A stretch of 64,000 bases of DNA from an uncultured Planifilum sp. (GTDB taxonomy: Bacteria; Bacillota; Bacilli; Thermoactinomycetales; DSM-44946): NCBI GenBank assembly GCA_937983105.1, contig CALKAM010000031.1, positions 85,553 to 149,552 of the forward strand. The letters run 5' to 3'. Positions 42,638 to 57,756 of this stretch are shown one piece after another. How positions within the stretch are numbered: the first letter of the stretch is position 1; every line of letters starts with the position of its first letter. Under the pieces are notes generated by a model, which was not told the origin of the DNA, did not search any database, and saw only the letters and a program-made list of their open reading frames with translations. The translations under genes and the position numbers were made by a program.

Positions 42638-42680
42638 TGTAACCGGTGTGCAATCGGTTTGTGACGAATTGGATTATAAT
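42638..42680 (+). promoter_or_regulatory. Triple heptamer direct repeat plus -10 upstream of the secreted esterase
   Basis: TGTAACC-ggtg-TGCAATC-ggtt-TGTGACG-8 nt-TATAAT; no canonical -35. Confidence 0.7.
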
Positions 42681-42719
42681 TTTGAATAGATCGACGATGA
42701 TAGAGGGGAGGTGAACGGC

Positions 42720-43721
42720 ATGCAAGTCCCCCGGAATCGGAAACGCGTCCCCTGGATTCTTGTCCTAACCCTCATAACCGGCGTAGCGTTCGCGGCAGCG
42801 GGGTACAAACCGGTCTCGGCCGCCGGGAGCTTCACCCGGCATCCGTACGAAGACGGCTTCCAGTTCAAAGTGTATGTTCCCGAAGGCTACGCGGGGGAAC
42901 CGGTCCCGCTCATGGTCATGCTTCACGGTTGCACCCAGAATGCCGATGATTTTGCGGCGGGTACGCAGATGAATCGATTGGCGGATGAAGAAAATTTCAT
43001 CGTCCTCTATCCGGAGATGAATCCCGCGGCCAATATCAACCGCTGCTGGAATTGGTTTTCCGACGCCCACCAGCACCGGGGTTCCGGGGAACCCGCCATC
43101 ATCAAGGGAATGGTGGATTGGGTGAAAAGCCATTACCGGATCGACGGAAACCGGGTCTATGTCGCCGGGCTGTCGGCGGGGGGCGCCATGAGCGTGATCC
43201 TGGGCGCCGCGTATCCCGATGTTTTCCGCGGGGTAGGGGTTCATTCCGGATTGGCATACGATGCGGCCAATTCTTTGCTGGAGGCGACGCTGGCCATGCT
43301 GTACGGGGGTCCGGATCCGGCGACGAAGGGGCATTTGGCCTACAGGGAGATGGGCGACCACAAGCGGTTGATGCCGGTCCTGGTTTTCCACGGTACCGCC
43401 GACTACACCGTCGCCCCCGTCAACGGCGACCAAACCCTCGCCCAATGGGCCCAGACCAACGATTACGCCGACGATGGCAGCGACAATGGGTCGGTGGATG
43501 ATAATGCGGATCAAACCATCACCGGAAGCGCCAACGGGCGGTCCTACACCCGGTATGTCTACCACGACGGTCGCGGCAGCCCCCTGATGGAAAAATGGAT
43601 CGTCAACGGATTGGGACACGCCTGGTCCGGAGGAAGCAGCTCCGGGTCCTACGCCGATCCCCGGGGTCCGGAGGCGAGCCGCATCCTGTGGAATTTCTTT
43701 GCCTCCCGCGAAGGCAGTTAG
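42720..43721 (+). CDS. Secreted PHB-depolymerase-family (LpqC-type) esterase
   Basis: Signal peptide (RKR..LVLTLITGVAFAA), MLHGCTQ oxyanion motif, CWNWF, VAGLSAGGAM lipase box, FHGTADYTV, GLGHAWSGG; ATG at 42720 after GGAGGTG. Confidence 0.88.
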   Translation: MQVPRNRKRVPWILVLTLITGVAFAAAGYKPVSAAGSFTRHPYEDGFQFKVYVPEGYAGEPVPLMVMLHGCTQNADDFAAGTQMNRLADEENFIVLYPEMNPAANINRCWNWFSDAHQHRGSGEPAIIKGMVDWVKSHYRIDGNRVYVAGLSAGGAMSVILGAAYPDVFRGVGVHSGLAYDAANSLLEATLAMLYGGPDPATKGHLAYREMGDHKRLMPVLVFHGTADYTVAPVNGDQTLAQWAQTNDYADDGSDNGSVDDNADQTITGSANGRSYTRYVYHDGRGSPLMEKWIVNGLGHAWSGGSSSGSYADPRGPEASRILWNFFASREGS

Positions 43722-43737
43722 GCGCGCTTTACCACCG

Positions 43738-44631
43738 TTATTCGTCGAGGAACCGCGTCACCCGGCCCAACAATTGCTCCGGATCGTCCACCAGCGGAGA
43801 ATGGCCGCAGTCGACCAGACCCACCGGCCGGGCGCCCGATCCGATGTCCTCCACAATCTCCAGGGCCATCCTCTCCGGCACCACCCGGTCGCGATCCCCC
43901 CACAGCACCAGGGTGGGAGCGACGATCCGCTCCGCCTCCCCCGTCCCATCCACCAGTCCGTTGTGCCGATCACTGATATTGAAGGTATTCAGCGCGTGAT
44001 ACACATCCACCAAATTCCGCTGGGTCAGGATATCCTCCAGATACGCCTCATACCGATCCGGATCGGGACGGCGATGGGTGTAGATGAGCATTTCCCACAG
44101 GTTGCGGAGAAACTGCTTGTCCCGCTGCCTCAGAGCCCGCAGGATCGGGAGCGTTTTGCCCGGATCGCCGGCGATCTCCGCCCTGGTCGACAGCCGCCGG
44201 CCCGTGGGCTGCCCCTTTTCGTCGGTCCCATAAAAGGGGTAGCCCCGGGTCGACACCGAAGCGAGGAGAACCAGTTTTTCCACCTGCTCCGGGCGATCCG
44301 CCGCCAGGTGCATGGCCACCCCGCCTCCCATCGACCAGCCCATGACCGAATAGCGTTCCAATCCCAGGGCGTCGATCCACTCCTTCACATCCGCTGCAAA
44401 ATCCCGAAGGGACTCCACCGGACGGCGATAGGTGGAAAGGCCGAATCCCCGCAGATCGACGGCATACACCCTGAACCGTCCGTCGATCCGCTCCAGGACC
44501 ACATCCCAATGGACGGAGGACGTCATATTTCCGTGGATCAGGACCAGCGGCCGCTCCCCTCCCTCCCGCATTCGATAACCCAGCTTCTCCCCATTGGACA
44601 GCTCCACCGTGCCGATGCGTATCGGCCTCAC
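43738..44631 (-). CDS. Alpha/beta hydrolase resembling Bacillus intracellular PHB depolymerase PhaZ
   Basis: IHGNMTSS, DLRGFG.STY, GWSMGG lipase box (the G-W-S-M-G box reported for B. thuringiensis PhaZ), WGDRD, CGHSPL; no signal peptide. Confidence 0.8.
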   Translation of the reverse strand: MRPIRIGTVELSNGEKLGYRMREGGERPLVLIHGNMTSSVHWDVVLERIDGRFRVYAVDLRGFGLSTYRRPVESLRDFAADVKEWIDALGLERYSVMGWSMGGGVAMHLAADRPEQVEKLVLLASVSTRGYPFYGTDEKGQPTGRRLSTRAEIAGDPGKTLPILRALRQRDKQFLRNLWEMLIYTHRRPDPDRYEAYLEDILTQRNLVDVYHALNTFNISDRHNGLVDGTGEAERIVAPTLVLWGDRDRVVPERMALEIVEDIGSGARPVGLVDCGHSPLVDDPEQLLGRVTRFLDE

Positions 44632-44634
44632 GGA

Positions 44635-45675
44635 TCAATCCCCCCTTTGCTTTTCTTCTTCTCCCCACCGGATCACCGTCGCCCCCCAGGCGTAACCGAT
44701 CCCCGCGCTGACGAGGACGACCAAATCCCCCTCCCGGATTTTGTTCTCCCGGAGTCCCAGCTCCAGGGACAATACGGGATCAAACTGCCCGATGTGCCCG
44801 TAATGATCCAGATAAATCGTCTGATCCCCGGACAGCCCCAGCTCCCCCAAAATCCGTTCGTGGGCCGACCGCTTCATATGAAGGATTCCGAGATAGTCGA
44901 TGTCCCGCTCCGTATAACCGCTCTTGTCCAGGGCTCGGCGAATCGCTTCGAGAAAGTTGCGGATCGACCGCTCCTCCAGCCGCCGCTTCATCCCCCGGGG
45001 ATCCGGGACATCCAGGAGGTGATCCCCCCGGGCGATCCCCTCCGCAGTCAGCGGCATCCTGGTTCCCCCGGCCCGGATCACCACGTCCTCGGAGAAGGAG
45101 CCGTCGGTGATGAGGTGGCTTTCCATCACGGCATTTCGGGACAAGCCCCGCCGCAGAATCACCGCCCCCGCTCCGGCCGCCAGGTTAAACAAGAAGCGGG
45201 TTCGCTCGTTCCGGTAATCCACCAGGTCCACATTCCGGTATCCGCCGGCCAGAAGCACCGTGCGGATCGACGGATCGGCCAGCATCATGTCCTTCGCCAA
45301 TTTCATCCCCAAGATGAGCGTCCCGCAGCGCTGGGACACGTCGAAGGCCCAGGCCCGCCACGCCCCCACCAGCCGCTGCAGGTGAATCCCTGCGGTCCAT
45401 ACGGGATATTCCTTGTACTCTTCGCCGACATATACGACCACATCGATTGTCTCCGGGTCGATGCCCGCCCCGGCGATGGCCTTCCGGGCGGCGCGGGCCC
45501 CCATCTCGCAGGTGTGATCGTCATCCCCGGGAATCGGTTTCTGGACAATCCCCATCTTTCGCTCCACCACATCCACCGGCAGGCCCGCGGCCGCCGCGAT
45601 CTCCCGTCCGGTCATCACCCGCTTTGGAAGATAGACGCCGGTGGACAAAATGCCGATGCTCTCACGGGACACCAT
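44635..45675 (-). CDS. FabH/KAS-III-fold enzyme with Cys-His-His instead of Cys-His-Asn
   Basis: GVYLP, AFDVSQRCG (Cys), ILHMK (His), HYGHIG in place of HGNT, SAGIGYAWG; TGATG coupling to livM. Confidence 0.85.
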   Translation of the reverse strand: MVSRESIGILSTGVYLPKRVMTGREIAAAAGLPVDVVERKMGIVQKPIPGDDDHTCEMGARAARKAIAGAGIDPETIDVVVYVGEEYKEYPVWTAGIHLQRLVGAWRAWAFDVSQRCGTLILGMKLAKDMMLADPSIRTVLLAGGYRNVDLVDYRNERTRFLFNLAAGAGAVILRRGLSRNAVMESHLITDGSFSEDVVIRAGGTRMPLTAEGIARGDHLLDVPDPRGMKRRLEERSIRNFLEAIRRALDKSGYTERDIDYLGILHMKRSAHERILGELGLSGDQTIYLDHYGHIGQFDPVLSLELGLRENKIREGDLVVLVSAGIGYAWGATVIRWGEEEKQRGD

Positions 45676-46679
45676 CAAACCTTCTCCCCCTCAAAACCGG
45701 GATCGGATCGGCGCGCTACCGACCGGGAGGACCGCCACTCCCGGATCGTTCCGACAATCCCCTTGGGAAAAAAGAGGACGGCCAAAATGTACACGATGCC
45801 GAACAAAATGATCCACCGTTCAAACAACAGGTGCACCTTGGCCAAATCGGTCAGCACATCGTGGGTCAGTTCGATCAGCGCCGCCCCGACGATGCCCCCC
45901 AACAGGGTGCCGACGCCGCCGATGATGGTCATCAGCAGCACATCCAGGGTGATCTCGACGGAAAAAACGGCGGTGTTGACGAAGCGGAGGGTCAACCCGT
46001 ACAAAAGTCCGCTCAGCCCTGCGAGAACGCCGGACAGGACGCTGGCCGCCACTTTGTAGTCGAGCACCCGATATCCCAGGGCCTCCGCCCGCTGCTCATT
46101 CTCCCGGATCGCCTGCAGTACCCGCCCCATCGGCGACCGGGTGAAGCGGAGCAGCAGGTAAAAGGTAAAAATCATGAAGAACAGGGCGATGAAATAGACC
46201 GTTTCCCGGTCCCGCAGCCAATCGGGAACCGAAAAGGTGAACCCGTCATTCCCCATGGTGAGGCTGCGCCACTTTTCCGCCGCCACCTGAAACAGGCCGG
46301 CGAAGGCCAGGGTCAACATGGCGTAATAATGGCTCTTCAGCCGCAGGGACAACATGCCCACCCCGTAACTGACCAGTGCCGCCAGGGCGATCGTCACCAG
46401 GACCGACAGAAAAAAGCTTTCCGTCGTCGCGTCCCCCCGCTTCATCAGGATCCCGACGGTGTAGGCCCCGATCCCGAAAAACATTGCATGGCCGAAGGAG
46501 ACGATGCCGGTGAATCCCAGCAGCAAATCGTAACTCATGGCGAAAACGGCGAAGATGAATATCTGCGTCAACAGAATCAGGGTGCTGCGGGAATCCGTCA
46601 GAAAGGGAAGCAGACACAATATCGCCACGATGCCCCCATATAGAAAACGCGACCGGGAAACGGCGGTTTGCCGAACCAT
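45675..46679 (-). CDS. Branched-chain-amino-acid-type ABC permease (LivM-like)
   Basis: LLLGFTGIVSFGHAMFFGIGAY, SPMGRVLQAIRENE.RA..LG, IIGGVGT. Confidence 0.9.
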   Translation of the reverse strand: MVRQTAVSRSRFLYGGIVAILCLLPFLTDSRSTLILLTQIFIFAVFAMSYDLLLGFTGIVSFGHAMFFGIGAYTVGILMKRGDATTESFFLSVLVTIALAALVSYGVGMLSLRLKSHYYAMLTLAFAGLFQVAAEKWRSLTMGNDGFTFSVPDWLRDRETVYFIALFFMIFTFYLLLRFTRSPMGRVLQAIRENEQRAEALGYRVLDYKVAASVLSGVLAGLSGLLYGLTLRFVNTAVFSVEITLDVLLMTIIGGVGTLLGGIVGAALIELTHDVLTDLAKVHLLFERWIILFGIVYILAVLFFPKGIVGTIREWRSSRSVARRSDPGFEGEKV

Positions 46680-46683
46680 CCCC

Positions 46684-47544
46684 TCACCCCCTCGCTCCGA
46701 ACAGGCCGGAAGGTTTAAACAGGAGCACGGCCGCCATCAGCAGCATATTGACCGCCAGGGCGGCGTCGGGCAGAAAATAATTCATGAAGGCGCTGGACAG
46801 TCCCACCATCACCGCCGCCATGGCGGAACCGGAAACGCTGCCCAGGCCCCCGACCACCACGACGATAAAGGCGAGGATCGCGTACTCCATCCCCATTTCC
46901 GCGTAAATCACTCCCGAATACGGAGCGAACAGCATGCCCGCCAGCGCCGCCAAAACGGCTCCCAGCACGAACACCAGCAAAAAATATCGTTTTACATTAA
47001 TGCCTAGCGATTCCACCATCTCGCGATGGATCACGCCCGCCCGGATGATCAGCCCCACCCGGGTCTTCTTCAGCAGCCATTGCAGCAGCGCAAAGACCAG
47101 AGCCCCCGCCGCGATGACAAAGATCCGGTACTTGATCAGGACGATCTCACCGATCCGCCAACTGCCTTCCAGGAGATTGAGCGTCGGAACACTGATCTGA
47201 TTGGGACCCCAGACCACCTTCACCATCTCGCTCAGTACCAACATCACACCGAGGGTGATCAAAATCTGCCGCGTGGAGTCCCCGTAAACCGGCTGAATGA
47301 TCAGGCGTTCCATGATCAAACCCAACAGCAGCCCGGCCGAACATGCGCCCAGAAGCCCCGCAAGAAAACTTCCGGTCCAAAGATAGAACCAGACTCCGGC
47401 ATAGGCGCCCCAGACGAACAGCCCGCCGTGGGCAAAATTGAGCACGTGCATGAGGCCGAAAATGAGAGTCAATCCCGCGGCCAGGAGAAAGAGAAGCATT
47501 CCCGTCGCCAAACCGTTGATGATCAGATTGATCGCAATATCCAT
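46684..47544 (-). CDS. Branched-chain-amino-acid-type ABC permease (LivH-like)
   Basis: GLTLIFGLMHVLNFAHG, TRVGLIIRA, FIVVVVGGLGS. Confidence 0.9.
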   Translation of the reverse strand: MDIAINLIINGLATGMLLFLLAAGLTLIFGLMHVLNFAHGGLFVWGAYAGVWFYLWTGSFLAGLLGACSAGLLLGLIMERLIIQPVYGDSTRQILITLGVMLVLSEMVKVVWGPNQISVPTLNLLEGSWRIGEIVLIKYRIFVIAAGALVFALLQWLLKKTRVGLIIRAGVIHREMVESLGINVKRYFLLVFVLGAVLAALAGMLFAPYSGVIYAEMGMEYAILAFIVVVVGGLGSVSGSAMAAVMVGLSSAFMNYFLPDAALAVNMLLMAAVLLFKPSGLFGARG

Positions 47545-47590: not shown

Positions 47591-49042
47591 TCAAGCGATT
47601 CCCAGGTACCGCCGTTGCAATTCCTTTTCCTCTTTTAACGCGTCCATCGGACCGGTGTGGACACATCGCCCGCCGTCCAGGATCACAAACCGATCCCCCA
47701 CGGCCTGGGCCATGGAAAAGTTTTGCTCCACCAGCAAAATGGTGGTCCGCTCCTTGATCTGCCGGATCCCTTCGACCATTTTGTCCACCATGATCGGTGC
47801 CAGACCCTTGCTCGGCTCGTCGATCAACAGCAGAGACCGGTTCTGGATGAAGGCCCGGGCGATCGAGAGCATCTGTTTCTGTCCCCCGCTCAATTGCCCC
47901 CCTTTTCGTCGCCAATACACCTTTAAATCGGGGAAGAGCTCCAAAATCCAAGCCAGCCGATCCGACACTGCAGGATCATCCCTCCCCATGGCCACCTTCA
48001 GATTCTCTTCCACCGTCAAATCACCGAAGATGCCCATATCCTCGGGAACATAGCCGATCCCTTTCCGGGCGATCACATGGGTGGGCAGGGATTGGATCTG
48101 CTCCCCTTCAAACCGCACCTCTCCCCGGACCACCGGGGAAAGCCCCATGATCGACCGGATCGTCGTGGTCTTCCCCGCTCCGTTCCTCCCCAACAGCACC
48201 GTCACTTCTCCCCGGGGAACCCCGAAGGAGACCCCCTGGAGGATGTGGAAGCGGCCGATCATGGTGTGAATTCCCTTCACTTCAAGGAGCATGAGCGTCC
48301 CCCCCAGATAGGCCGATTGCACCCGTTCATCCTTCATGATCTCCTCCGGCGTGCCCTCCGCCAGCAGGCGGCCGGCGGCCAGCACCAACACCCGGTCCGA
48401 AAGGCTGAGGATCAGGTCCATCTTGTGCTCGATCAGCAGGATGGTCCGTTCACCCTCCTCCCTCAGAAGGCGGATCACCTCCAGAATGGCCGGCACCTCT
48501 TCCCGGGACATGCCGGCGGTCGGCTCATCCAGCAATAGCAATTCCGTTTCCAGGGCGAGGAGCATGGCGATTTCCAATTGGCGTTGTTCCCCGTGGGTCA
48601 AATTTTTGGCCGGCATCGCCGCCTTTGGCAGGAGACGAACCTTCTCCAGCCAATGCGTCGTCTTTTCTTCCAACTCCGGATATCCGTCGGCCCGGGTCCA
48701 CATCGGATAGCGGATGCCCATGCGGGATTGGACCGCCAGCCGGACATTCTCCCGAACCGTCAGGCCGGGAAATACGTTGGTGATCTGGAAGGAACGGCCG
48801 ATCCCCTCCCGGGTCCGGGCATGCGAAGCGAGGTGGGTGATCTCCCGCCCCTTAAACCGGATGCTCCCCCGGGTCGGCTTCAGCTGTCCGCTCAGCAGAT
48901 TGAAAAAGGTGGTCTTCCCCGCGCCGTTGGGACCGATGATGGACGTGAGCCGGTTCTTCGGAATTTTGACGCTCACCCCGTCGACCGCGACATGGCCCCC
49001 GAAGGCGATGGTCAAGTCGCGGGTTTCCAAAAGGGTCTCCAT
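47591..49042 (-). CDS. LIV-type ABC ATPases LivG and LivF in one reading frame (fusion, or two genes with an internal start at 48292)
   Basis: Two Walker A motifs (GPNGAGKTT, GRNGAGKTT), LTHGEQ and LSGGQ signatures, two DEP motifs. No stop between ..SAYLGG and MLLEVKG; the junction contains a G7 run. Confidence 0.88.
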   Translation of the reverse strand: METLLETRDLTIAFGGHVAVDGVSVKIPKNRLTSIIGPNGAGKTTFFNLLSGQLKPTRGSIRFKGREITHLASHARTREGIGRSFQITNVFPGLTVRENVRLAVQSRMGIRYPMWTRADGYPELEEKTTHWLEKVRLLPKAAMPAKNLTHGEQRQLEIAMLLALETELLLLDEPTAGMSREEVPAILEVIRLLREEGERTILLIEHKMDLILSLSDRVLVLAAGRLLAEGTPEEIMKDERVQSAYLGGTLMLLEVKGIHTMIGRFHILQGVSFGVPRGEVTVLLGRNGAGKTTTIRSIMGLSPVVRGEVRFEGEQIQSLPTHVIARKGIGYVPEDMGIFGDLTVEENLKVAMGRDDPAVSDRLAWILELFPDLKVYWRRKGGQLSGGQKQMLSIARAFIQNRSLLLIDEPSKGLAPIMVDKMVEGIRQIKERTTILLVEQNFSMAQAVGDRFVILDGGRCVHTGPMDALKEEKELQRRYLGIA

Positions 49043-49114
49043 CGGTTCACCCCCGTTCAAGCGAGGAGGCATTCGCGCCCCTTCGACGGCCGGACGCCGG
49101 TCCGCCGCACGCCC

Positions 49115-50357: not shown

Positions 50358-50390
50358 ATCATAGCGGCGAGGGGTTACAAAGCGGTTACA
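50358..50390 (-). promoter_or_regulatory. Heptamer direct repeat plus -10 upstream of the ABC/FabH/PhaZ operon
   Basis: Minus strand TGTAACC-gctt-TGTAACC-9 nt-TATGAT. Confidence 0.7.
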
Positions 50391-50424: not shown

Positions 50425-53400
50425 TCACGAGACGAAGGGGTCCGGATCGCCCCCGCCGACGCCCCGGGCAGGGCCATCAACCGGGGTTTCATCGCCCAAA
50501 TCGCCTTCCCGGATCATCCGATAAAGTCGCTCAGTCTCGGGCATCGGGGCAATGTCGAGCTCCCGCTCCAGCGTTTGCCGGCAGCGGCGGTACCATTTGA
50601 TGGATTGGGGACGATTATTTTTGCGGAAATAGGCGATCATCAGCAGGCGATACGCCTCCTCCCAGCAGGAATCCTGCCGAAGAATCCGTTCACTCCAGTA
50701 AATCACCCCATCATCATCCCCCGCATCCAACAACAGCTGCGCCAGCCGCTCCGCCCCCCGGAGAAACAGCGTATCCAGCCGCTCCCTCTCTTCCCGGCAC
50801 CAGTCATCGTAACGCCGCTCCGGAAGATACTCTCCCTTATACAGGGACAGCCCGGCGGCGAGAACGTTCCGGGCGCGATCCGGGTTCCGCGATTGCAACC
50901 CCTCCAGAATCCGCCGCTCAAATTCGGCGGCATCCAGCTCAAATCCCGACGCCGGATTCAGTCCGTACATCGATCCCTGCCGCTGGATGAAAAAGGGCGT
51001 CGACCGGGCGGGACGACCGGGTTCCAATACCTGGTTCAATGCGTGGAGGGCCACCTTAAAATCCCGGGATGCCGCCGACTTCTCCACCCCCGGCCACAGG
51101 AGGGAGAGAATTTCCTCCTTGGGAAGCAGATGCTGCCGCCGGGTGATAAACAGCTGGAGAAGCTCCTTCGCTTTCCACCGTTGCCACCCCTTCTCCTCCA
51201 CCGGTTCATCCCCCAGCCACACGCGGAAACCGCCCAGGGTCTCCACCCGCAGGGTGTAGCCGGGGTGGAAGGTGATCCGTTCAAAGCCCAAATCCGCCAA
51301 CAAGTGGGAGACATACGCTTCCTTCACACCTTGCCGCTGGGCTTCGAACAGCAGCCGGGTCACCCATTGCACATCGGACGGTCCGAAGAGGGTGCGGCGC
51401 CGGAGGAGGTACTCATGTTCCCCCGTGCGCATCCAGTTTAGAAAGCGCTCCATGCAGGTGGAGAATCGATCCTGTTCCTTCAGTTTAAAGGCCGCCAGCG
51501 CCTGCCACAGGGAAGTGACGGTCAAACCGTAGCTGTCACCACAGCGGGCAAAATCCCGGCTGCACTGCGCAAACCACCCGTCAGCCTCCTTCCAGCGGGA
51601 GGCATGGGCGCAGGCGATCCCCATGGCCAGGCGGATCAGCGTGGAAAGCCAAAAATCCTTCGCCCGCTCCGTTTCGGTCAACGCTTCTTCCCCGCAAGCC
51701 AAGGCCGATTCAACGGAACCCTCCCGCCCGTAGAGCAGACACAGTCCCATCAGCGGTTCCGCCTTTCCCCGGGAAACCTTCAGCTCCTCCATCAGATCCA
51801 GGGATGTCCGGTAACAGTCGGCAGAAAGTTGCGTCTCATACCGGTTCAACAGCTGGACGGCGTGGCCCATGCGCATCCAACCGCACGCCTCCACAAAGGG
51901 AACCTGCCACCGAACCCCCTGCATGATGCCTGCTTCGGCAAATTGCTTGGCCCGTTCAGGCTCCCCCATCATCGCGTGGATCAGGGACAACAGGACATCC
52001 GTTTCCCGGTGGGATCGGGGAAGGCGAAGTCTTTCCCGGCCCGTCTCCACCCGTTTTTTTCGTTCTAGAATTTGTTTGGCCTGAACCAGCTGGCCGGTTC
52101 GCAGGTAATAGCGGGCCTCCAACTCCTCCTCCCCGTCGGGCGGCTCCCTGCTCTTGGCCACCCACTCGCCGGCGTCATCGCCTCGGCCGTAATTGACCAG
52201 GTTTTCGGCGATCAAACGGGTGAGACGCCTCCGCTGCTTTTCCGCCCCCGCGACGCCCTCCAACACATCCAAGGCGCGATTCAAGAGGCGCTCCGCCTCC
52301 TGGGGTTGGATCGTATCGAGGAAAATTCGCGCCTGCCCCTCGAGGGCCATGCTGACTCCCCGGACATCTCCCCTGTCCTCGGCCAGCCGCTCCCCGCGGG
52401 CATAGCAGTCCATCGCCCGGGCATAGGAACAACGGTACCGATTCACTTCCCCCTCCAACACCCAGAGCGAATAGCGCCGATCCTTCACCTCTTCGGGCAA
52501 TTCAGAAAGGGCCGTTTCAATCGGATCCAGCCGGCCCTGATCCAACATCGCCGGGCCGTGTTCCTCCAAAAAACGGCTGATGCTCTCGGCATCCTTCGTC
52601 TCGAGCATCAGGCGAACCGCTTCGTCAAACCGCCGGTTCCGACAGTAATGCTCGGCAGCGAAACGGTAAAAGGAAAGCCGTTCTTCAGGCCTCTGTTCCA
52701 ACTTTTGTCGAAGGTAATTCCGGAAAAGGGGGAGGTAGCAAAAGGCCCCCTCCTCTGTCCGCCTTAGAAAGAGGTGTTGACGCAGGAGATGCTCCTGGAT
52801 TTGTCGGGCGTCCGCCTCCGGATACGATGCCTCCAAATCCTCCAAAGACCACGCATCCAATAGGGCTGTCTGCATAAAAAACCGCCGGACATCGTGGGGT
52901 TGTTTCTCCCATACCGCCGCATCCAGAAAAGGAAACAACTCCGCCCCAATCTCCTCGGCGAACTGCTCTTCCATCCTGCGGAATCTGGCGAACTTTTCCC
53001 CGATCAGCCGAAGGGCCAGTACCCATCCCCCCGTCTGTGCATGGAGCCGTTTGGAGTCGTCCGGCGAAAGGGCGATCCCGTACTCGTCAGCCAGCCACAC
53101 CGCCGCCTCTTCCTCGGAAAAGGAGAGATCATCGCCGGTCAGCTCCAACACGTTTCCCTTCACCCGCATCTCCGCCAACCGGGGCCAATGGGGACGGGTC
53201 CGGCTGATCAGCACGAGGTGGAAACCCTCCGGCAAATGGGACACAAACCACTCCATCCATCGGGCCAGAAACGGTTCCTCCTCCGCCAGATGCCAGTTAT
53301 CCAGCACGAAGACCGCCCGTTCCTCGAGGAGAACCAACTCGTTGAGGAGATCCGATCCCAGATCAAACCATTCGTCCGCTTCCGGGTCTTCCTCCCCCCG

Positions 53401-53712
53401 CTCCAACCGGTGCCGCCAGGTCTCACCGATCGAGGGGAATCGGGCATTCAACGCGCTGAGCAGATAGCGAAAAAAAACGGCCGGTTTCGCATCGCCCTCT
53501 CCGATTCGATACCAACCGGGAGTCAGCTGCTCATCCTGAAAAAAACAGGCGACAGCGGCGGTTTTGCCGTATCCCGGGCCGGCATGGACCAGGGTGAGGG
53601 GGGATTGGACCCATCCTTTCAACTTTTTCGCCAACTCCGGTCTCCGAAAAGTGCGGGGGCTCGGAAGCGGAGGGATCCACTTCGTTTTCAGGATGCGCTG
53701 TCCTGTTCTCAT
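50425..53712 (-). CDS. Large transcriptional activator: MalT-like ATPase, TPR region, C-terminal OmpR-type wHTH plus BTAD
   Basis: HAGPGYGKT Walker A, VFVLDNWH Walker B, helical repeats; LRVETLGGFRV..KAKELL..EILSLLWP; BTAD motifs (D..EFE, YKGEYL, EERERL, EEAYRLLM, ERELDIAPMPET). Confidence 0.9.
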   Translation of the reverse strand: MRTGQRILKTKWIPPLPSPRTFRRPELAKKLKGWVQSPLTLVHAGPGYGKTAAVACFFQDEQLTPGWYRIGEGDAKPAVFFRYLLSALNARFPSIGETWRHRLERGEEDPEADEWFDLGSDLLNELVLLEERAVFVLDNWHLAEEEPFLARWMEWFVSHLPEGFHLVLISRTRPHWPRLAEMRVKGNVLELTGDDLSFSEEEAAVWLADEYGIALSPDDSKRLHAQTGGWVLALRLIGEKFARFRRMEEQFAEEIGAELFPFLDAAVWEKQPHDVRRFFMQTALLDAWSLEDLEASYPEADARQIQEHLLRQHLFLRRTEEGAFCYLPLFRNYLRQKLEQRPEERLSFYRFAAEHYCRNRRFDEAVRLMLETKDAESISRFLEEHGPAMLDQGRLDPIETALSELPEEVKDRRYSLWVLEGEVNRYRCSYARAMDCYARGERLAEDRGDVRGVSMALEGQARIFLDTIQPQEAERLLNRALDVLEGVAGAEKQRRRLTRLIAENLVNYGRGDDAGEWVAKSREPPDGEEELEARYYLRTGQLVQAKQILERKKRVETGRERLRLPRSHRETDVLLSLIHAMMGEPERAKQFAEAGIMQGVRWQVPFVEACGWMRMGHAVQLLNRYETQLSADCYRTSLDLMEELKVSRGKAEPLMGLCLLYGREGSVESALACGEEALTETERAKDFWLSTLIRLAMGIACAHASRWKEADGWFAQCSRDFARCGDSYGLTVTSLWQALAAFKLKEQDRFSTCMERFLNWMRTGEHEYLLRRRTLFGPSDVQWVTRLLFEAQRQGVKEAYVSHLLADLGFERITFHPGYTLRVETLGGFRVWLGDEPVEEKGWQRWKAKELLQLFITRRQHLLPKEEILSLLWPGVEKSAASRDFKVALHALNQVLEPGRPARSTPFFIQRQGSMYGLNPASGFELDAAEFERRILEGLQSRNPDRARNVLAAGLSLYKGEYLPERRYDDWCREERERLDTLFLRGAERLAQLLLDAGDDDGVIYWSERILRQDSCWEEAYRLLMIAYFRKNNRPQSIKWYRRCRQTLERELDIAPMPETERLYRMIREGDLGDETPVDGPARGVGGGDPDPFVS

Positions 53713-53717
53713 GGCAC

Positions 53718-55232
53718 CTACCTCTCCGAGCTGGATTCCTTTTGGGCGAAGAGGCGGAGGACGGCCCGCTTGTCGATCTTGCCCACCGGCGTTTTCGGCA
53801 GTTCGCCGATGAAGCGGAAGGATTTGGGTATCTTGTATGAAGCCAGTTTGCCCCTTAAGTGGGACCTCAGCCCTTCATCGGTCAACCTGGAGCCCTCCTT
53901 CGGAACCACGACGGCCACCACCGCCTCCCCCCATTTGGAATCCGGCGCACCCACCACGACCGCTTGTTCCACTTCGGGATGGTCGGCGATGAGCTGTTCC
54001 ACCTCCGCAGGATACACGTTTTCTCCTCCCGTGACGATCATCTCCTTTTTTCGCCCGACGATGTAGTGATCCCCCTCTTCATCCCGCATCCCCAGATCGC
54101 CGGTCTTGAGCCAGCCGTCGACCAGCGCTTCGGCGGTCGCCCCGGAATTGTTCCAGTAGCGGTCGAACAGGTGCCCTCCCCGAAGCCAAATCTCCCCCAC
54201 GCTTCCCGTCGGAGCATCCGTCCCGTCCTCCGAAACGATCCGGACCTGGTTGTAAATCATCGGCTTCCCGACGGTTCCGGGTTTTCTCCGGGCGGTGGAA
54301 GGATCGGTGACAAAATTGTTGGGGCCCGCTTCGGTCAAACCGTAGCCCTCCCGGAAGGGAAGGCCCTTGGCGGCGAAGGACTGGTACACCTCCCGCGGGC
54401 ACGGGGCTCCCCCGGAGAGGAACTCCCGCATGGTGGGAAAGGACTTGTCGGCAAACCGGGGCGATCGGATGATCTGGTGATACATCGTCGGCACCATCAG
54501 GGCAATGGTACATCCTTCCCGTTCAATCACATCCATGACCTTGTCGGGATCGAAACGGTCGATGATGACAAGGGTCCCCCCCGCATGCAACACCGGGATG
54601 GAGAGGGCGTTCAACCCCCCGGTGTGGAACATGGGCAGGCAGGAGAGGGCCCGATCCTTGGCCGTCAGCTGCCAGCTCAGAATCGTGTTGACCGAGTTCC
54701 AGAAGATGGATCCGTGGGTGAGCACCACTCCCTTCGGTTTACCCGTCGTCCCTCCCGTATAGAGGATCATCGCCGGATCCGACAGCGAGGGATAATCGGC
54801 GGCTTCTCCTTCCTCCGGCTCCGGCGGAAAGTCCGGATCCAGGCGTTCATAGGGGACGACCGCCGGAGCCGACAGTTCCGCCGCCAGGTGTTCCATTCGC
54901 CGGTGAAATGCCAACACCTTCGGCTCGGCATCTTCCAGAATCCCGTTCAATTCCCGGGGGGAAAGTCGCCAGTTCAGCGGGACAAAAACCGCCCCCAGCC
55001 GCTCACAGGCAAAAATCACGGCGAAAACGGATGCATCATTGGGAGAAAGAAATGCTACCCGGTCGCCCCGTGAAATGCCCATCGCCGAGAGCGTTCGAGC
55101 CATCCGGACCGAGCGCCGGTACAGAAGATCGTAACTCCATCGCCTACCGGTTTCTCCATCCACGACGGCGATCCGATCCGGCGAAAGCCGCCTGCGCCCT
55201 TCGAGCCAACCCGTTTCCCAATTCACCGACAT
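53718..55232 (-). CDS. Acyl-CoA synthetase (AMP-forming; FadD/MenE-like)
   Basis: YTGGTTGKPKG, EGYGLTEAGP, WLKTGDLG, GRKKEMIVTGGENVYP, PKTPVGKIDK; likely ATG at 55232. Confidence 0.92.
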   Translation of the reverse strand: MSVNWETGWLEGRRRLSPDRIAVVDGETGRRWSYDLLYRRSVRMARTLSAMGISRGDRVAFLSPNDASVFAVIFACERLGAVFVPLNWRLSPRELNGILEDAEPKVLAFHRRMEHLAAELSAPAVVPYERLDPDFPPEPEEGEAADYPSLSDPAMILYTGGTTGKPKGVVLTHGSIFWNSVNTILSWQLTAKDRALSCLPMFHTGGLNALSIPVLHAGGTLVIIDRFDPDKVMDVIEREGCTIALMVPTMYHQIIRSPRFADKSFPTMREFLSGGAPCPREVYQSFAAKGLPFREGYGLTEAGPNNFVTDPSTARRKPGTVGKPMIYNQVRIVSEDGTDAPTGSVGEIWLRGGHLFDRYWNNSGATAEALVDGWLKTGDLGMRDEEGDHYIVGRKKEMIVTGGENVYPAEVEQLIADHPEVEQAVVVGAPDSKWGEAVVAVVVPKEGSRLTDEGLRSHLRGKLASYKIPKSFRFIGELPKTPVGKIDKRAVLRLFAQKESSSER

Positions 55233-55269
55233 CGCTCCCCGTTTTTCCATGGTGAAATATCCAACGGGG

Positions 55270-55302
55270 AAGATAGCAAAAAGGGGTTGCAAACGGGTTA
55301 CA
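55270..55302 (-). promoter_or_regulatory. Heptamer direct repeat plus extended -10 upstream of the acyl-CoA ligase/regulator operon
   Basis: Minus strand TGTAACC-cgtt-TGCAACC-9 nt-TATCTT, with TG immediately upstream of the -10. Confidence 0.68.
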
Positions 55303-55444: not shown

Positions 55445-56281
55445 TCAGGGGATGCTTTCCCCCTGCGCGATCGGATTTTCCTCGTAACTGATCCAGTCGC
55501 TGAAGCTGCCCGCATACAGGCGTCCCTCTCGTCCCGCCAGATGCAGGGCCAACAAATTGGCGCATGCCGTCACACCGGACCCGCAGTAGACGATGGGTTG
55601 CTCCTCCTCGGGAATAAAGGAAAAATCCTTTTTCAATGCCTGGGGAGTTTTCCATCGCCGCCCCTTTTTCAAATTGTTTTTCCAGAAATAATTGACCGCA
55701 CCGGGAATGTGTCCCGCCTTGGCATCGATGGGCTCATACCTTCCCGCAAACCGTTCGGGATCCCGGGAGTCGATCAAAAGCCCCCGGTGCCGCCGAACCT
55801 CCTCCATGCCCACCAGCCATTCGGGGTTACGGATCTGGGGGGTGAACCGGGAGGGCTTCGGATGGACCCGATCCGGCGTTACCGGATACCCCTTCTCCTT
55901 CCACCCCCGGTACCCCTCATCCAAAACCGCCACCTGATCATGACCAAGATACCGGAGCAGCCACCACAGGCGGGCGGCCATCGCTCCTCCCTGATCATCG
56001 TAGGCGACGACGGTTTTGGTGCGATCGATTCCGACCCGCCCCAACGTGTTTGCAAGGGCCTCCAGCTCCGGCAGGGGGTGACGGCCGCCGTGTCGGCGGA
56101 CCGGTCCCGACAGATCCCGCTCCAAGTCCATATATACGGCTCCCGGTATGTGATCCCGTTCATAGGCCTTTCGGCCCGCATGGGGCTTCGACAATTCAAA
56201 CCGGCAATCGACGATGACCAGATTGGAATCCCCCAACCTTTCCCGCAGCCACTTCGGCGAAACGACGGCAGATGGCAGCAC
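55445..56281 (-). CDS. Two-domain rhodanese / sulfurtransferase (SseA-like)
   Basis: DHIPGAVY, GRHPLP, GHIPGAVN, YCGSGVTA active-site loop, YAGSFSDW. Confidence 0.9.
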   Translation of the reverse strand: MLPSAVVSPKWLRERLGDSNLVIVDCRFELSKPHAGRKAYERDHIPGAVYMDLERDLSGPVRRHGGRHPLPELEALANTLGRVGIDRTKTVVAYDDQGGAMAARLWWLLRYLGHDQVAVLDEGYRGWKEKGYPVTPDRVHPKPSRFTPQIRNPEWLVGMEEVRRHRGLLIDSRDPERFAGRYEPIDAKAGHIPGAVNYFWKNNLKKGRRWKTPQALKKDFSFIPEEEQPIVYCGSGVTACANLLALHLAGREGRLYAGSFSDWISYEENPIAQGESIP

Positions 56282-56304
56282 ATGGATCCTCCTTCGTCCG
56301 AATC

Positions 56305-57756
56305 TCAGGATACGTTCCTCCCGCGTTCATCCCGGACTTCCGCATCGTATTTCTTGCAGCGCACGTACCCCCGGAAGGCGGACTCCACCCGGCGCCCCCA
56401 CTGAAACAGCGCATCTTCCTGACCGACGGCGGTGATCAGCTGAAGACCGATCGGCAGCCCGGACCGGTCGGTTCCCACCGGGATGGTCAGGGAGGGAAGT
56501 CCGAAGGTGTTGGCATAGGCCACATACGGCAGATACCGGAGAAAGGTTTTCCGGATCGAGAAGATCTCCCCATACACTTTCCCGTGTTCAGGGGCGGCAC
56601 AATGGTACACCGGGAACACCAACACCCGATTTTGTAGAAACTTCTTCACTTCCTCCTCTCCCTTGCGCAGCTGGTCCCTCAGCTGAATCCACTCCTTCTT
56701 GGAGGGGCGGAACAGGCGCGTTCCCAGGAGGGCCCAGGTCAGGTACGGATGCAGCTGCACCCGCATCTTGAAACGCCCCTTTAAATATTGGCGAAGGATC
56801 CCTGAAAACCCCTTTTCCCCACACAGCCGGACCAGTTCCTCCCCTCCGTCGACGGACATGATCCACTGCCACATCAGCGCCGCCTGCTCGAAAAAGGGAG
56901 GCATCACCGTTAAGGAACCGGAAGCGAACTCCGAGCGGATCGCTTCCAACAACTCGGCCGTCTCCTCGCCCACCGGTGCATCGGGGTGGGGGGGCGGAAC
57001 CACCAGCCGATATGCGTCGATATCCACCGAGGGCGGTTTTTGGAAAGCCAAAATGGCATGGATCTTTTCCGCATCCTTCACCGATTTGGCCAGGGCTCCG
57101 ATTCCGAACATGGAGACCTGGTGGGGCTCCTTCACGTCCGGAAAGGCACCGGCCAGGGAAACCTGGCGGTTCCCCGATTTGAAGCCGATCACCCCATTAA
57201 AGTGGGCGGGAAAACGGATCGATCCGCCGATGTCGGAACCGATCCCCACCGCCGCACCGCCCACCGCGATCAGGGCTCCCTCTCCCCCGCTGGAGCCGCC
57301 GGCAGTTCGGCTCAGGTCCCAGGGATTGTTGGTGCGGCCGAACAGCGTGTTCTCCGTTTCCTGGCAATAGCACAGGGCAGGGGTGTTGGTCTTGCCCAGG
57401 ATGATGGCCCCTTCCTCCTTCAACCGCCTGACGATCTCAGCGTCTGCTGCATCGACCGCCCCCCGGCGATGGGGCAATCCGCCGGTGGTGTGCATCCCCT
57501 TGACGAAAAAGGCTTCCTTCATGCTGATGGGGACGCCCCACAGCCGTCCTCGGGCTTTTCCTTCCTGCAGCAGCCGGTCCCGTTCCTCCGCCTCCCGCCT
57601 GGCTTCATCGAACCGGGTTTCCACGACCGCCCGGATGTGGGGATTCACCCGCTCGATGTGCCGGATATACCCCTCGACCGCTTCAGCGGAGGTGATCTCC
57701 CCCGCCCGGATTTTCTCCGCCAAGGTGGAGGCATCCATGTCCAACAATTCCGTCAT
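56305..57756 (-). CDS. Amidase-signature family hydrolase (FAAH-like)
   Basis: GVPISMKE (Lys), GKTNTP, GGSSGGEG, GSDIGGSIRFPA, GLPIGLQL. Confidence 0.9.
   Translation of the reverse strand: MTELLDMDASTLAEKIRAGEITSAEAVEGYIRHIERVNPHIRAVVETRFDEARREAEERDRLLQEGKARGRLWGVPISMKEAFFVKGMHTTGGLPHRRGAVDAADAEIVRRLKEEGAIILGKTNTPALCYCQETENTLFGRTNNPWDLSRTAGGSSGGEGALIAVGGAAVGIGSDIGGSIRFPAHFNGVIGFKSGNRQVSLAGAFPDVKEPHQVSMFGIGALAKSVKDAEKIHAILAFQKPPSVDIDAYRLVVPPPHPDAPVGEETAELLEAIRSEFASGSLTVMPPFFEQAALMWQWIMSVDGGEELVRLCGEKGFSGILRQYLKGRFKMRVQLHPYLTWALLGTRLFRPSKKEWIQLRDQLRKGEEEVKKFLQNRVLVFPVYHCAAPEHGKVYGEIFSIRKTFLRYLPYVAYANTFGLPSLTIPVGTDRSGLPIGLQLITAVGQEDALFQWGRRVESAFRGYVRCKKYDAEVRDERGRNVS

What the first reader, a model, noticed from the sequence alone, without database searches (positions are those of the whole stretch)
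44635..45675. FabH-fold enzyme with Cys-His-His triad inside a catabolic operon
Seen: Cys (SQRCG) and His (LHMK) are retained, but the FabH HGNT Asn is replaced by His (HYGHIG), and no ACP gene is nearby. Established: FabH uses Cys-His-Asn, while thiolases and CerJ/DpsC-like acyltransferases deviate at this position. Inference: it is not a fatty-acid initiation enzyme but a CoA-dependent acyltransferase or thiolytic enzyme, for example on 3HB-oligomer-CoA or acetoacetyl-CoA. That could be a new catabolic step.
Basis: partly seen in the sequence, partly recalled or inferred. Interest (0 to 1): 0.62.

Follow-up and report, generated by a model that had tools for sequence, protein, structure and literature searches.

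The report
Acyl-transfer-type FabH look-alike in PHB-scavenging operon
This gene is labelled a fatty-acid starter enzyme, but it has the active site of DpsC/CerJ-type acyl-transfer enzymes, is not linked to an acyl carrier protein, and shares a promoter motif with an importer and two bioplastic (PHB) depolymerase-like genes, so it most likely performs an undescribed CoA-dependent step in consuming PHB fragments from outside the cell.

Summary
Observation confirmed. The ORF (44635-45675, minus strand) has Cys118, His267 and His295 in place of FabH's Asn. No ACP gene was found in the window or in 101 homologous loci. It belongs to NCBIfam PRK06840, a widespread family with no characterised member found.

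The site is C-H-H-D, the arrangement of DpsC (S118/H266/H297/D302) and close to CerJ/ChlB3 (Cys-His-Asp). So the triad is not new, and by itself it does not exclude condensation. A paralogue clade (B. cereus group) uses Ser.

Context carries the argument. The host has a normal fabH-fabD-fabG-acpP-fabF cluster and no PhaC match. The gene lies in a conserved operon: acyl-CoA ligase, BTAD regulator, LIV-type importer, PhaZ, and usually an NAD-type SDR. A direct repeat occurs only three times in the genome: before the ligase, the importer operon and a secreted LtPHBase-like depolymerase.

Best reading (0.45): CoA-dependent acyl transfer or thiolysis of imported (R)-3-hydroxybutyrate oligoesters. 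Rivals: 3-oxoacyl-CoA thiolase (0.22) and malonyl-CoA condensation (0.18). No activity was tested. The scan noted similar operons before on other DNA.

The parts
44635..45675 (-). PRK06840-family KAS III-fold enzyme; Cys118/His267/His295/Asp300 (numbered from the TTG at 45678), also Glu86, Glu87, Lys89, Trp94
   Evidence: NF005308 502.6 bits vs cut-off 315; conservation; AlphaFold model pLDDT 92.8, KAS III fold
43738..44631 (-). PhaZ-type alpha/beta hydrolase without signal peptide (GWSMGG), 3 nt after the KAS stop
   Evidence: NF050089 424 bits vs 300; E 8e-95 to B. thuringiensis-type PHB depolymerase structure 8YNV
42711..43721 (+). Secreted-type PHB depolymerase, convergent with the operon, preceded by the shared motif
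   Evidence: NF050058 336.6 bits vs 150; E 1.6e-124 to 8DAJ, which I identify from memory as LtPHBase, described in PMC9601781
45675..46679 (-). LivM-type ABC permease; stop codon overlaps the KAS start
   Evidence: PF02653; junction
46684..47544 (-). LivH-type ABC permease
   Evidence: PF02653
47591..49072 (-). LivG and LivF ATPases; the apparent fusion is probably a one-base error or a strain variant near 48298
   Evidence: two ABC domains; all four runs carry extra C there, and one extra C ends LivG at 263 aa
49115..50329 (-). LivK-type substrate-binding protein
   Evidence: PF13458; closest structure 3N0X, ligand not established here
50373..50390 (-). Direct-repeat motif TGYAAYC-N4-TGYAAYC upstream of livK
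50425..53712 (-). MalT-like/BTAD transcriptional regulator, inferred to bind the repeat
   Evidence: motif tracks BTAD-bearing loci
53718..55292 (-). Acyl-CoA ligase (AMP-binding); probable start at the ATG near 55232
   Evidence: PF00501; a ligase homologue lies within 10 kb of the KAS gene in 71/80 loci
55285..55302 (-). Direct-repeat motif upstream of the acyl-CoA ligase
42638..42655 (+). Direct-repeat motif upstream of the secreted PHB depolymerase
   Evidence: same arrangement in L013 and L101

Best explanation
An ACP-independent, CoA-linked acyl-transfer enzyme of the DpsC/CerJ/ChlB3 active-site type, used in catabolism of imported 3-hydroxy-acid oligoesters. Proposed path: the secreted depolymerase cuts environmental PHB, and the LIV-type ABC system imports the fragments. 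PhaZ can hydrolyse them to 3HB. In parallel the ligase makes an oligomer-CoA (or 3HB-CoA). Cys118, activated by His295-Asp300, takes over a 3-hydroxybutyryl group from an ester bond and hands it to CoA (the reverse of the CerJ reaction). The resulting (R)-3-hydroxyacyl-CoA is removed by an NAD-type SDR or a MaoC hydratase. Shown: residues, family, fold, operon, shared motif, co-occurrence. Inferred: co-regulation, substrate, direction and the reaction itself.
For: GHxGxxD, the loop Trp and the nucleophile position match DpsC, CerJ and ChlB3 (PMC9573744, PMC12664062). His295 and Asp300 persist across distant relatives while the first His varies, and it is Leu in five Anaerolineae enzymes that keep the BTAD/SDR context, most also the ligase. 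The nucleophile is Ser in 117/117 of the paralogue clade, as in DpsC. No ACP in 101 loci; the same module occurs in haloarchaea. A ligase lies nearby in 71/80 loci and LivK in 53/80. The motif occurs 3 times in 3.5 Mb (0.13-0.27 expected), all at this locus, including the secreted depolymerase; 22 hits vs 3 in shuffles over 29 BTAD loci, 0 in 11 TetR-type loci. The depolymerase is found in 15/40 family-positive vs 15/261 family-negative Bacilli, 10 of the 15 within about 11 kb (kin are not independent). No PhaC match in the host, full PhaC in only 7/40. Partner SDRs carry the NAD-type acidic residue. CoA-dependent PHB thiolysis has a precedent in PhaZa1 (PMC7147478).
Against: His267 is kept in 195/200 and 117/117 sequences, whereas the acyl-transfer specialists CerJ (Val), ChlB3 and Pau29 (Asn) lost it; this points to enolate (C-C) chemistry (PMC4425429). 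Turning an oxygen ester into a thioester is uphill and needs a downstream pull (own knowledge). LtPHBase is hypothesised to release only monomer (PMC9601781), which would leave little oligomer to import. This window lacks the SDR. Non-Bacillota loci have different hydrolases (about 27% identity) and binding proteins (about 25%), so PHB may not be the family-wide substrate. Fold scores do not favour CerJ/ChlB3 (Z 35-36) over FabH/BioZ (Z 38-39). AU tests do not reject grouping with FabH (p 0.13).
Confidence: 0.45

Rival explanations
1. A non-canonical degradative thiolase: Cys118 attacks the 3-oxo group of acetoacetyl-CoA or a longer 3-oxoacyl-CoA, His267/His295 stabilise the acetyl-CoA enolate, and Glu86 (at the HMG-CoA synthase Glu79 position) protonates it. 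It would fill the thiolase slot of an (R)-specific beta-oxidation cassette.
For: Partner genes cover the other beta-oxidation steps: ligase, SDR or MaoC, sometimes an acyl-CoA dehydrogenase (L092, L109). Both His are strongly kept. Glu86 lies 32 residues before Cys118, the same spacing as S. aureus HMG-CoA synthase Glu79-Cys111, and aligns with it.
Against: No second catalytic Cys in the C-terminal loop (SAGIG). Glu86 is absent in the Ser clade, Spirochaeta and haloarchaea. A Ser nucleophile is atypical of thiolases (own knowledge). The host has six canonical thiolases, and L088 has one just behind the operon. No acid at the OleA Glu117 position.
Confidence: 0.22
2. A DpsC/CosE- or NphT7-like ACP-independent condensing enzyme: acyl-CoA made by the ligase is extended with malonyl-CoA, reduced by the SDR and released by the hydrolase, giving a 3-hydroxy acid, ester or signal molecule.
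For: Cys(Ser)-His-His is described as the condensation-competent state (PMC4425429; PMC12664062), and both His are present.
Against: No ACP in the loci and no malonyl-supply genes among the conserved neighbours identified. The SDRs are NAD-type rather than NADPH-type like the host FabG. An importer and a secreted depolymerase share the motif. His267 is Leu in one subclade with the same context.
Confidence: 0.18
3. The same acyl transfer run forward: a PhaC-independent synthase that links 3HB-CoA units into short oligoesters (comparable to NonJ/NonK-type C-O bond formation), with PhaZ as the turnover enzyme.
For: CerJ-type enzymes make esters from acyl-CoA (PMC9573744, PMC4425429), which is the downhill direction (own knowledge). 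Most hosts have a PhaZ-like or other hydrolase but no PhaC match.
Against: The importer, secreted depolymerase and NAD-type SDR point to consumption. No report of oligoester storage in these hosts was found.
Confidence: 0.08
4. An ordinary second FabH (acyl-CoA:malonyl-ACP condensation for membrane fatty acids), as the database name says.
For: FabH fold (TM about 0.8 by query) and automatic names.
Against: Far below FabH cut-offs. Asn and Ser replaced by His and Asp. No ACP linkage, a canonical fab cluster elsewhere, and occurrence in haloarchaea.
Confidence: 0.04

Closest known systems
DpsC / CosE (DpsC-type priming KS and acyltransferase; PDB 5WGC, 4XS7)
   Same: KAS III fold; nucleophile + PH/LH His + GHxGxxD (DpsC S118, H266, H297, D302 vs C118, H267, H295, D300); loop Trp; the Ser clade of this family has the identical S-H-H-D set
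   Different: Weak sequence match (E 1e-11); DpsC works with an ACP in type II polyketide synthesis; here no ACP and an uptake/hydrolase operon
CerJ and ChlB3 (KAS III-like Cys-His-Asp acyltransferases; PDB 3S3L, 7EQI)
   Same: Cys nucleophile (CerJ also reads QRC), His and Asp five residues apart, loop Trp
   Different: They lack the first His (Val, Asn) and are biosynthetic tailoring or loading enzymes; 19-22% identity
FabH / KAS III (E. coli 1HN9, B. subtilis FabHA 8VD9)
   Same: Fold, Cys and first His
   Different: Asn and Ser replaced by His and Asp; longer acidic/basic loop 86-94; no ACP or fab linkage; below family cut-off
NCBIfam PRK06840 (NF005308), neighbour of PRK06839 ligase
   Same: It is a member (502.6 bits vs 315)
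   Different: The name '3-oxoacyl-ACP synthase' is not backed by any study I found; the family splits into a Cys clade (this one) and a Ser clade
HMG-CoA synthase (S. aureus MvaS, 1XPL)
   Same: Glu at the Glu79 position in this clade
   Different: HMGS has Asn at the GH position and a long C-terminal extension; the Glu is not family-wide
PhaZa1 of Cupriavidus necator (CoA-dependent PHB thiolysis)
   Same: Proposed net reaction: PHB ester + CoA gives 3HB-CoA (PMC7147478)
   Different: Unrelated protein family acting on the cell's own granules; functional analogy only

Membership tests
FabH (KAS III of fatty acid synthesis) | Cys-His-Asn triad | tested here: not met
   His295 at the Asn position in 200/200
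FabH (KAS III of fatty acid synthesis) | Score above TIGR00747 / PRK09352 cut-off | tested here: not met
   123 vs 292 and 124 vs 249 bits
FabH (KAS III of fatty acid synthesis) | Malonyl-ACP condensation, fabH complementation | not testable with these tools
   needs an assay
PRK06840 (NF005308) | Score above equivalog cut-off | tested here: met
   502.6 vs 315 bits
DpsC/CerJ/ChlB3-type KAS III-like acyltransferases | Cys/Ser nucleophile with GHxGxxD His-Asp pair | tested here: met
   C118, H295, D300 invariant; motifs read from the PDB chains
DpsC/CerJ/ChlB3-type KAS III-like acyltransferases | One clade with DpsC/CerJ apart from FabH | tested here: inconclusive
   Best tree joins all GHxxxxD proteins incl. 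a DpsC homologue and Mup045 (SH-aLRT 99, quick tree), but AU tests reject no alternative
DpsC/CerJ/ChlB3-type KAS III-like acyltransferases | His-Asp geometry at the nucleophile | not testable with these tools
DpsC/CerJ/ChlB3-type KAS III-like acyltransferases | Acyl-transfer activity | not testable with these tools
   needs an assay
DpsC-type priming ketosynthase of type II PKS | Cognate ACP and KS/CLF in the cluster | tested here: not met
   No ACP match in window or 101 loci; no KS/CLF among the conserved neighbours identified
Classical thiolase (TIGR01930) | Thiolase family profile and second catalytic Cys (CxG) | tested here: not met
   No thiolase hit; loop reads SAGIG; VIA Z about 24 to thiolases vs 35-39 to KAS III folds
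OleA | Glu117 general base, Cys-His-Asn | tested here: not met
   Glu117 aligns near V93; Asn replaced by His; 34 vs 285 bits
HMG-CoA synthase | Glu79-equivalent base | tested here: met
   E86, same 32-residue spacing to Cys; this clade only
HMG-CoA synthase | Family score and GN motif | tested here: not met
   58 vs 244 bits; GH instead of GN
NphT7 (acetoacetyl-CoA synthase) | Acetyl-CoA + malonyl-CoA condensation; sequence clade | not tested
   No NphT7 sequence was retrieved

The most novel reading that the evidence does not exclude
PRK06840 enzymes are thiolase-fold oligoester:CoA acyltransferases, the core of a widespread, undescribed bacterial and haloarchaeal route that imports 3-hydroxy-acid oligoesters (PHB fragments in Bacilli) and converts ester bonds directly to CoA thioesters, or builds such oligoesters without PhaC.
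Probability: 0.35. Interest if true: 0.75.

Novelty: new variant of a known kind. Interest (0 to 1): 0.5.

Why it matters
I found no description of how bacteria take up and use fragments of other organisms' PHB after extracellular depolymerisation. This locus gives a testable set of importer, activator, ligase and two enzymes in compost-associated Bacilli relevant to bioplastic breakdown. It would move DpsC/CerJ-type chemistry from antibiotic biosynthesis into primary catabolism, and correct a FabH label on a family present in about 13% of sampled Bacilli (40/301), including the B. cereus group, and in haloarchaea. It also suggests that many 'intracellular PHB depolymerases' of the B. thuringiensis PhaZ family sit in hosts without PhaC and may act on imported substrate.

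Tried and rejected
Fold searches (Foldseek, VIA wide, ESM Atlas) confirm only the KAS III fold and do not separate FabH from CerJ/ChlB3. AU tests on the tree rejected nothing. A 25-residue motif query against the PDB gave no hits. The idea that Glu86 is a family-wide base was rejected: it is absent in the Ser clade, Spirochaeta and haloarchaea. An OleA-like Glu is absent. An obligate Cys/Ser heterodimer was rejected because this genome has only the Cys form and the B. cereus-group locus only the Ser form. The NHL protein in Ser-clade operons has no PHB depolymerase domain. A ligand for the LivK homologue 3N0X could not be found. RNA runs are contigs only and do not show transcription. The sigma-70 and terminator scan was at chance level. 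The Tseng 2006 and Uchino 2007 papers were not held. No study of a PRK06840 protein turned up in ten searches of an open-access library, none of which used the family accession, so this does not prove there is none. MAFFT places the FabH first His one column off, so triad labels for outgroups must be read with the HMMER alignments.

Full report
Observation. The finding is a real ORF on the minus strand (44635-45675 from ATG; residues are numbered from the TTG at 45678). In 200 homologues Cys118, His295 and also Asp300 are invariant; His267 is present in 195 and is Leu in five Anaerolineae proteins. The host ACP finds no match in the window or in 101 homologous loci.

Family. The protein is a clear member of NCBIfam PRK06840 (502.6 bits, cut-off 315) and far below the FabH, OleA and HMG-CoA synthase cut-offs. 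The AlphaFold model (pLDDT 92.8) has the KAS III fold, with Z 35-39 to BioZ, FabH, PqsD, OleA, ChlB3 and CerJ alike and about 24 to thiolases. The family occurs in Bacillota (40/301 sampled Bacilli), Deinococcota, Chloroflexota, Spirochaetota, some Gammaproteobacteria and haloarchaea. It has at least two forms: this Cys clade (loop EEYKEY) and a Ser clade (loop SPHKDY; Ser in 117/117, H/H/D kept) that includes the B. cereus group.

Active site. Among distant 50%-identity representatives the constant elements are the nucleophile and GHxxxxD; the first His varies. The PDB sequences show DpsC as QVSNG / LPHMG / GHLGGGD, CerJ as QRCNG / VIPV / GHVGAGD, and ChlB3 as QGCNG / YMNFS / GHLGASD. Papers give DpsC S118-H297-D302 (PMC12664062) and ChlB3 C113-H296-D301 (PMC9573744). 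PMC4425429 describes Cys(Ser)-His-His as the condensation-competent triad of DpsC/CosE and Cys-His-Asp as the acyl-transfer triad of CerJ. This protein has both sets. A quick tree joins all GHxxxxD proteins, including a DpsC homologue and Mup045, apart from FabH, OleA and HMGS (SH-aLRT 99), but AU tests reject no alternative. Glu86 aligns with HMG-CoA synthase Glu79 but is limited to part of the family.

Context. Gene order here is ligase, BTAD regulator, livKGFHM, KAS, phaZ, convergent with a secreted-type depolymerase. In 80 related loci a ligase lies within 10 kb in 71 and LivK in 53; nearly all of the closest Bacilli loci continue KAS-phaZ-SDR. The Ser clade typically comes as TetR-ligase-(MaoC)-KAS-liv. 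Haloarchaeal plasmids carry liv-KAS, in two of three cases with MaoC, hydrolase and ligase; archaea generally lack ACP (own knowledge). Partner SDRs have an acidic residue after the second strand, the NAD-type signature, unlike the host FabG. True 3HB dehydrogenases lie in or near two loci. The two flanking hydrolases are close to PHB depolymerases of known structure, 8YNV (E 8e-95) and 8DAJ (E 1.6e-124). The host has a canonical plsX-fabH-fabD-fabG-acpP-fabF cluster, six thiolases, a bdh gene next to a GntP-type permease and no PhaC match at 99.6% completeness. Only 7 of 40 family-positive Bacilli have a full PhaC.

Regulation. TGYAAYC-N4-TGYAAYC occurs exactly three times in the 3.5-Mb genome (0.13-0.27 expected): 43-55 nt before the ligase, livK and the secreted depolymerase. 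With one mismatch it is found 22 times in 29 BTAD loci (3 in shuffles) and never in 11 TetR-type loci; in L013 it again precedes the secreted depolymerase. The lead came from scan note e1-5278758 and was tested here. The depolymerase is present in 15/40 family-positive and 15/261 family-negative Bacilli, and 10 of the 15 are within about 11 kb of the KAS gene; relatives are not independent, so no p-value is claimed.

Mechanism. The simplest account of importer, ligase, hydrolase, His-Asp enzyme and NAD-type SDR or MaoC, with no ACP and mostly no PhaC, is scavenging of external 3-hydroxy-acid esters. The KAS-fold enzyme would move a 3-hydroxyacyl group between an oxygen ester and CoA through acyl-Cys118 (0.45). 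The Cys/Ser interchange and the loss of His267 in one subclade favour this. The strong retention of His267 keeps C-C chemistry open, either as 3-oxoacyl-CoA thiolysis (0.22) or as malonyl-CoA condensation (0.18). Forward oligoester synthesis (0.08) and plain FabH (0.04) are unlikely. All catalytic steps are inferred. PHB is well supported as the substrate class only for Bacilli loci of this clade.

Verdict. Observation confirmed; interpretation partly supported. The active-site type is known from Streptomyces biosynthesis; its use in an uptake and catabolism operon is not described in the papers I could search. The scan has noted this operon type on other DNA (e1-2408898, e1-5396172, and a Cys-Thr-Tyr sister clade in e1-2995471). 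New variant of a known kind, interest 0.5.

Noticed in passing
window 47591-49072 (-), near 48298: The livG-livF fusion is probably an assembly error or strain variant: all four public runs have one or two extra C, and one extra C ends LivG at 263 aa.
   Followed up: yes
L086:8243-9235 and relatives: The B. cereus-group PRK06840 paralogue has Ser in place of the catalytic Cys (117/117) and lies in a TetR-ligase-MaoC-KAS-NHL protein-liv operon, far from phaZ. Some genomes carry both the Cys and Ser forms in one locus (L002, L005, L006, L087, L088, L100).
   Followed up: partly
L039, L059, L067, L069, L071, L073: Anaerolineae members; five of them (all but L039) have Leu in place of His267 together with Q298E and N149V changes.
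   Followed up: partly
L109-L111: Haloarchaeal plasmids carry the same module (LIV importer and C-H-H-D enzyme; MaoC, hydrolase and ligase in L109 and L111).
   Followed up: partly
L086:9232-11094, L091:6940-8901, L096:6372-8207: A secreted-looking NHL-repeat protein of about 620 aa follows the Ser-clade enzyme in several Bacilli; role unknown.
   Followed up: partly
genome contig C62:2178-6925: A cluster with SDR, MaoC-like genes, a second SDR and a thiolase; its first SDR is 78% identical to the SDR in the Thermoflavimicrobium operon (L001) and may stand in for the SDR missing from this window.
   Followed up: partly
genome contig C8:3153-5247 (L112): bdh followed by a GntP-family permease, a likely separate route for 3HB monomer uptake and oxidation.
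   Followed up: partly
window 55445-57756 (-): Rhodanese-type sulfurtransferase and amidase genes upstream of the ligase; not found in any of the 80 related loci (the sulfurtransferase only in a same-genus locus), so probably not part of the system.
   Followed up: partly
P0306-P0411: A large uncharacterised set of Cys-(Asn/Gln)-His-Asp KAS III-like proteins lies between this family and DpsC/CerJ; the one context checked (L125) was unrelated.
   Followed up: partly
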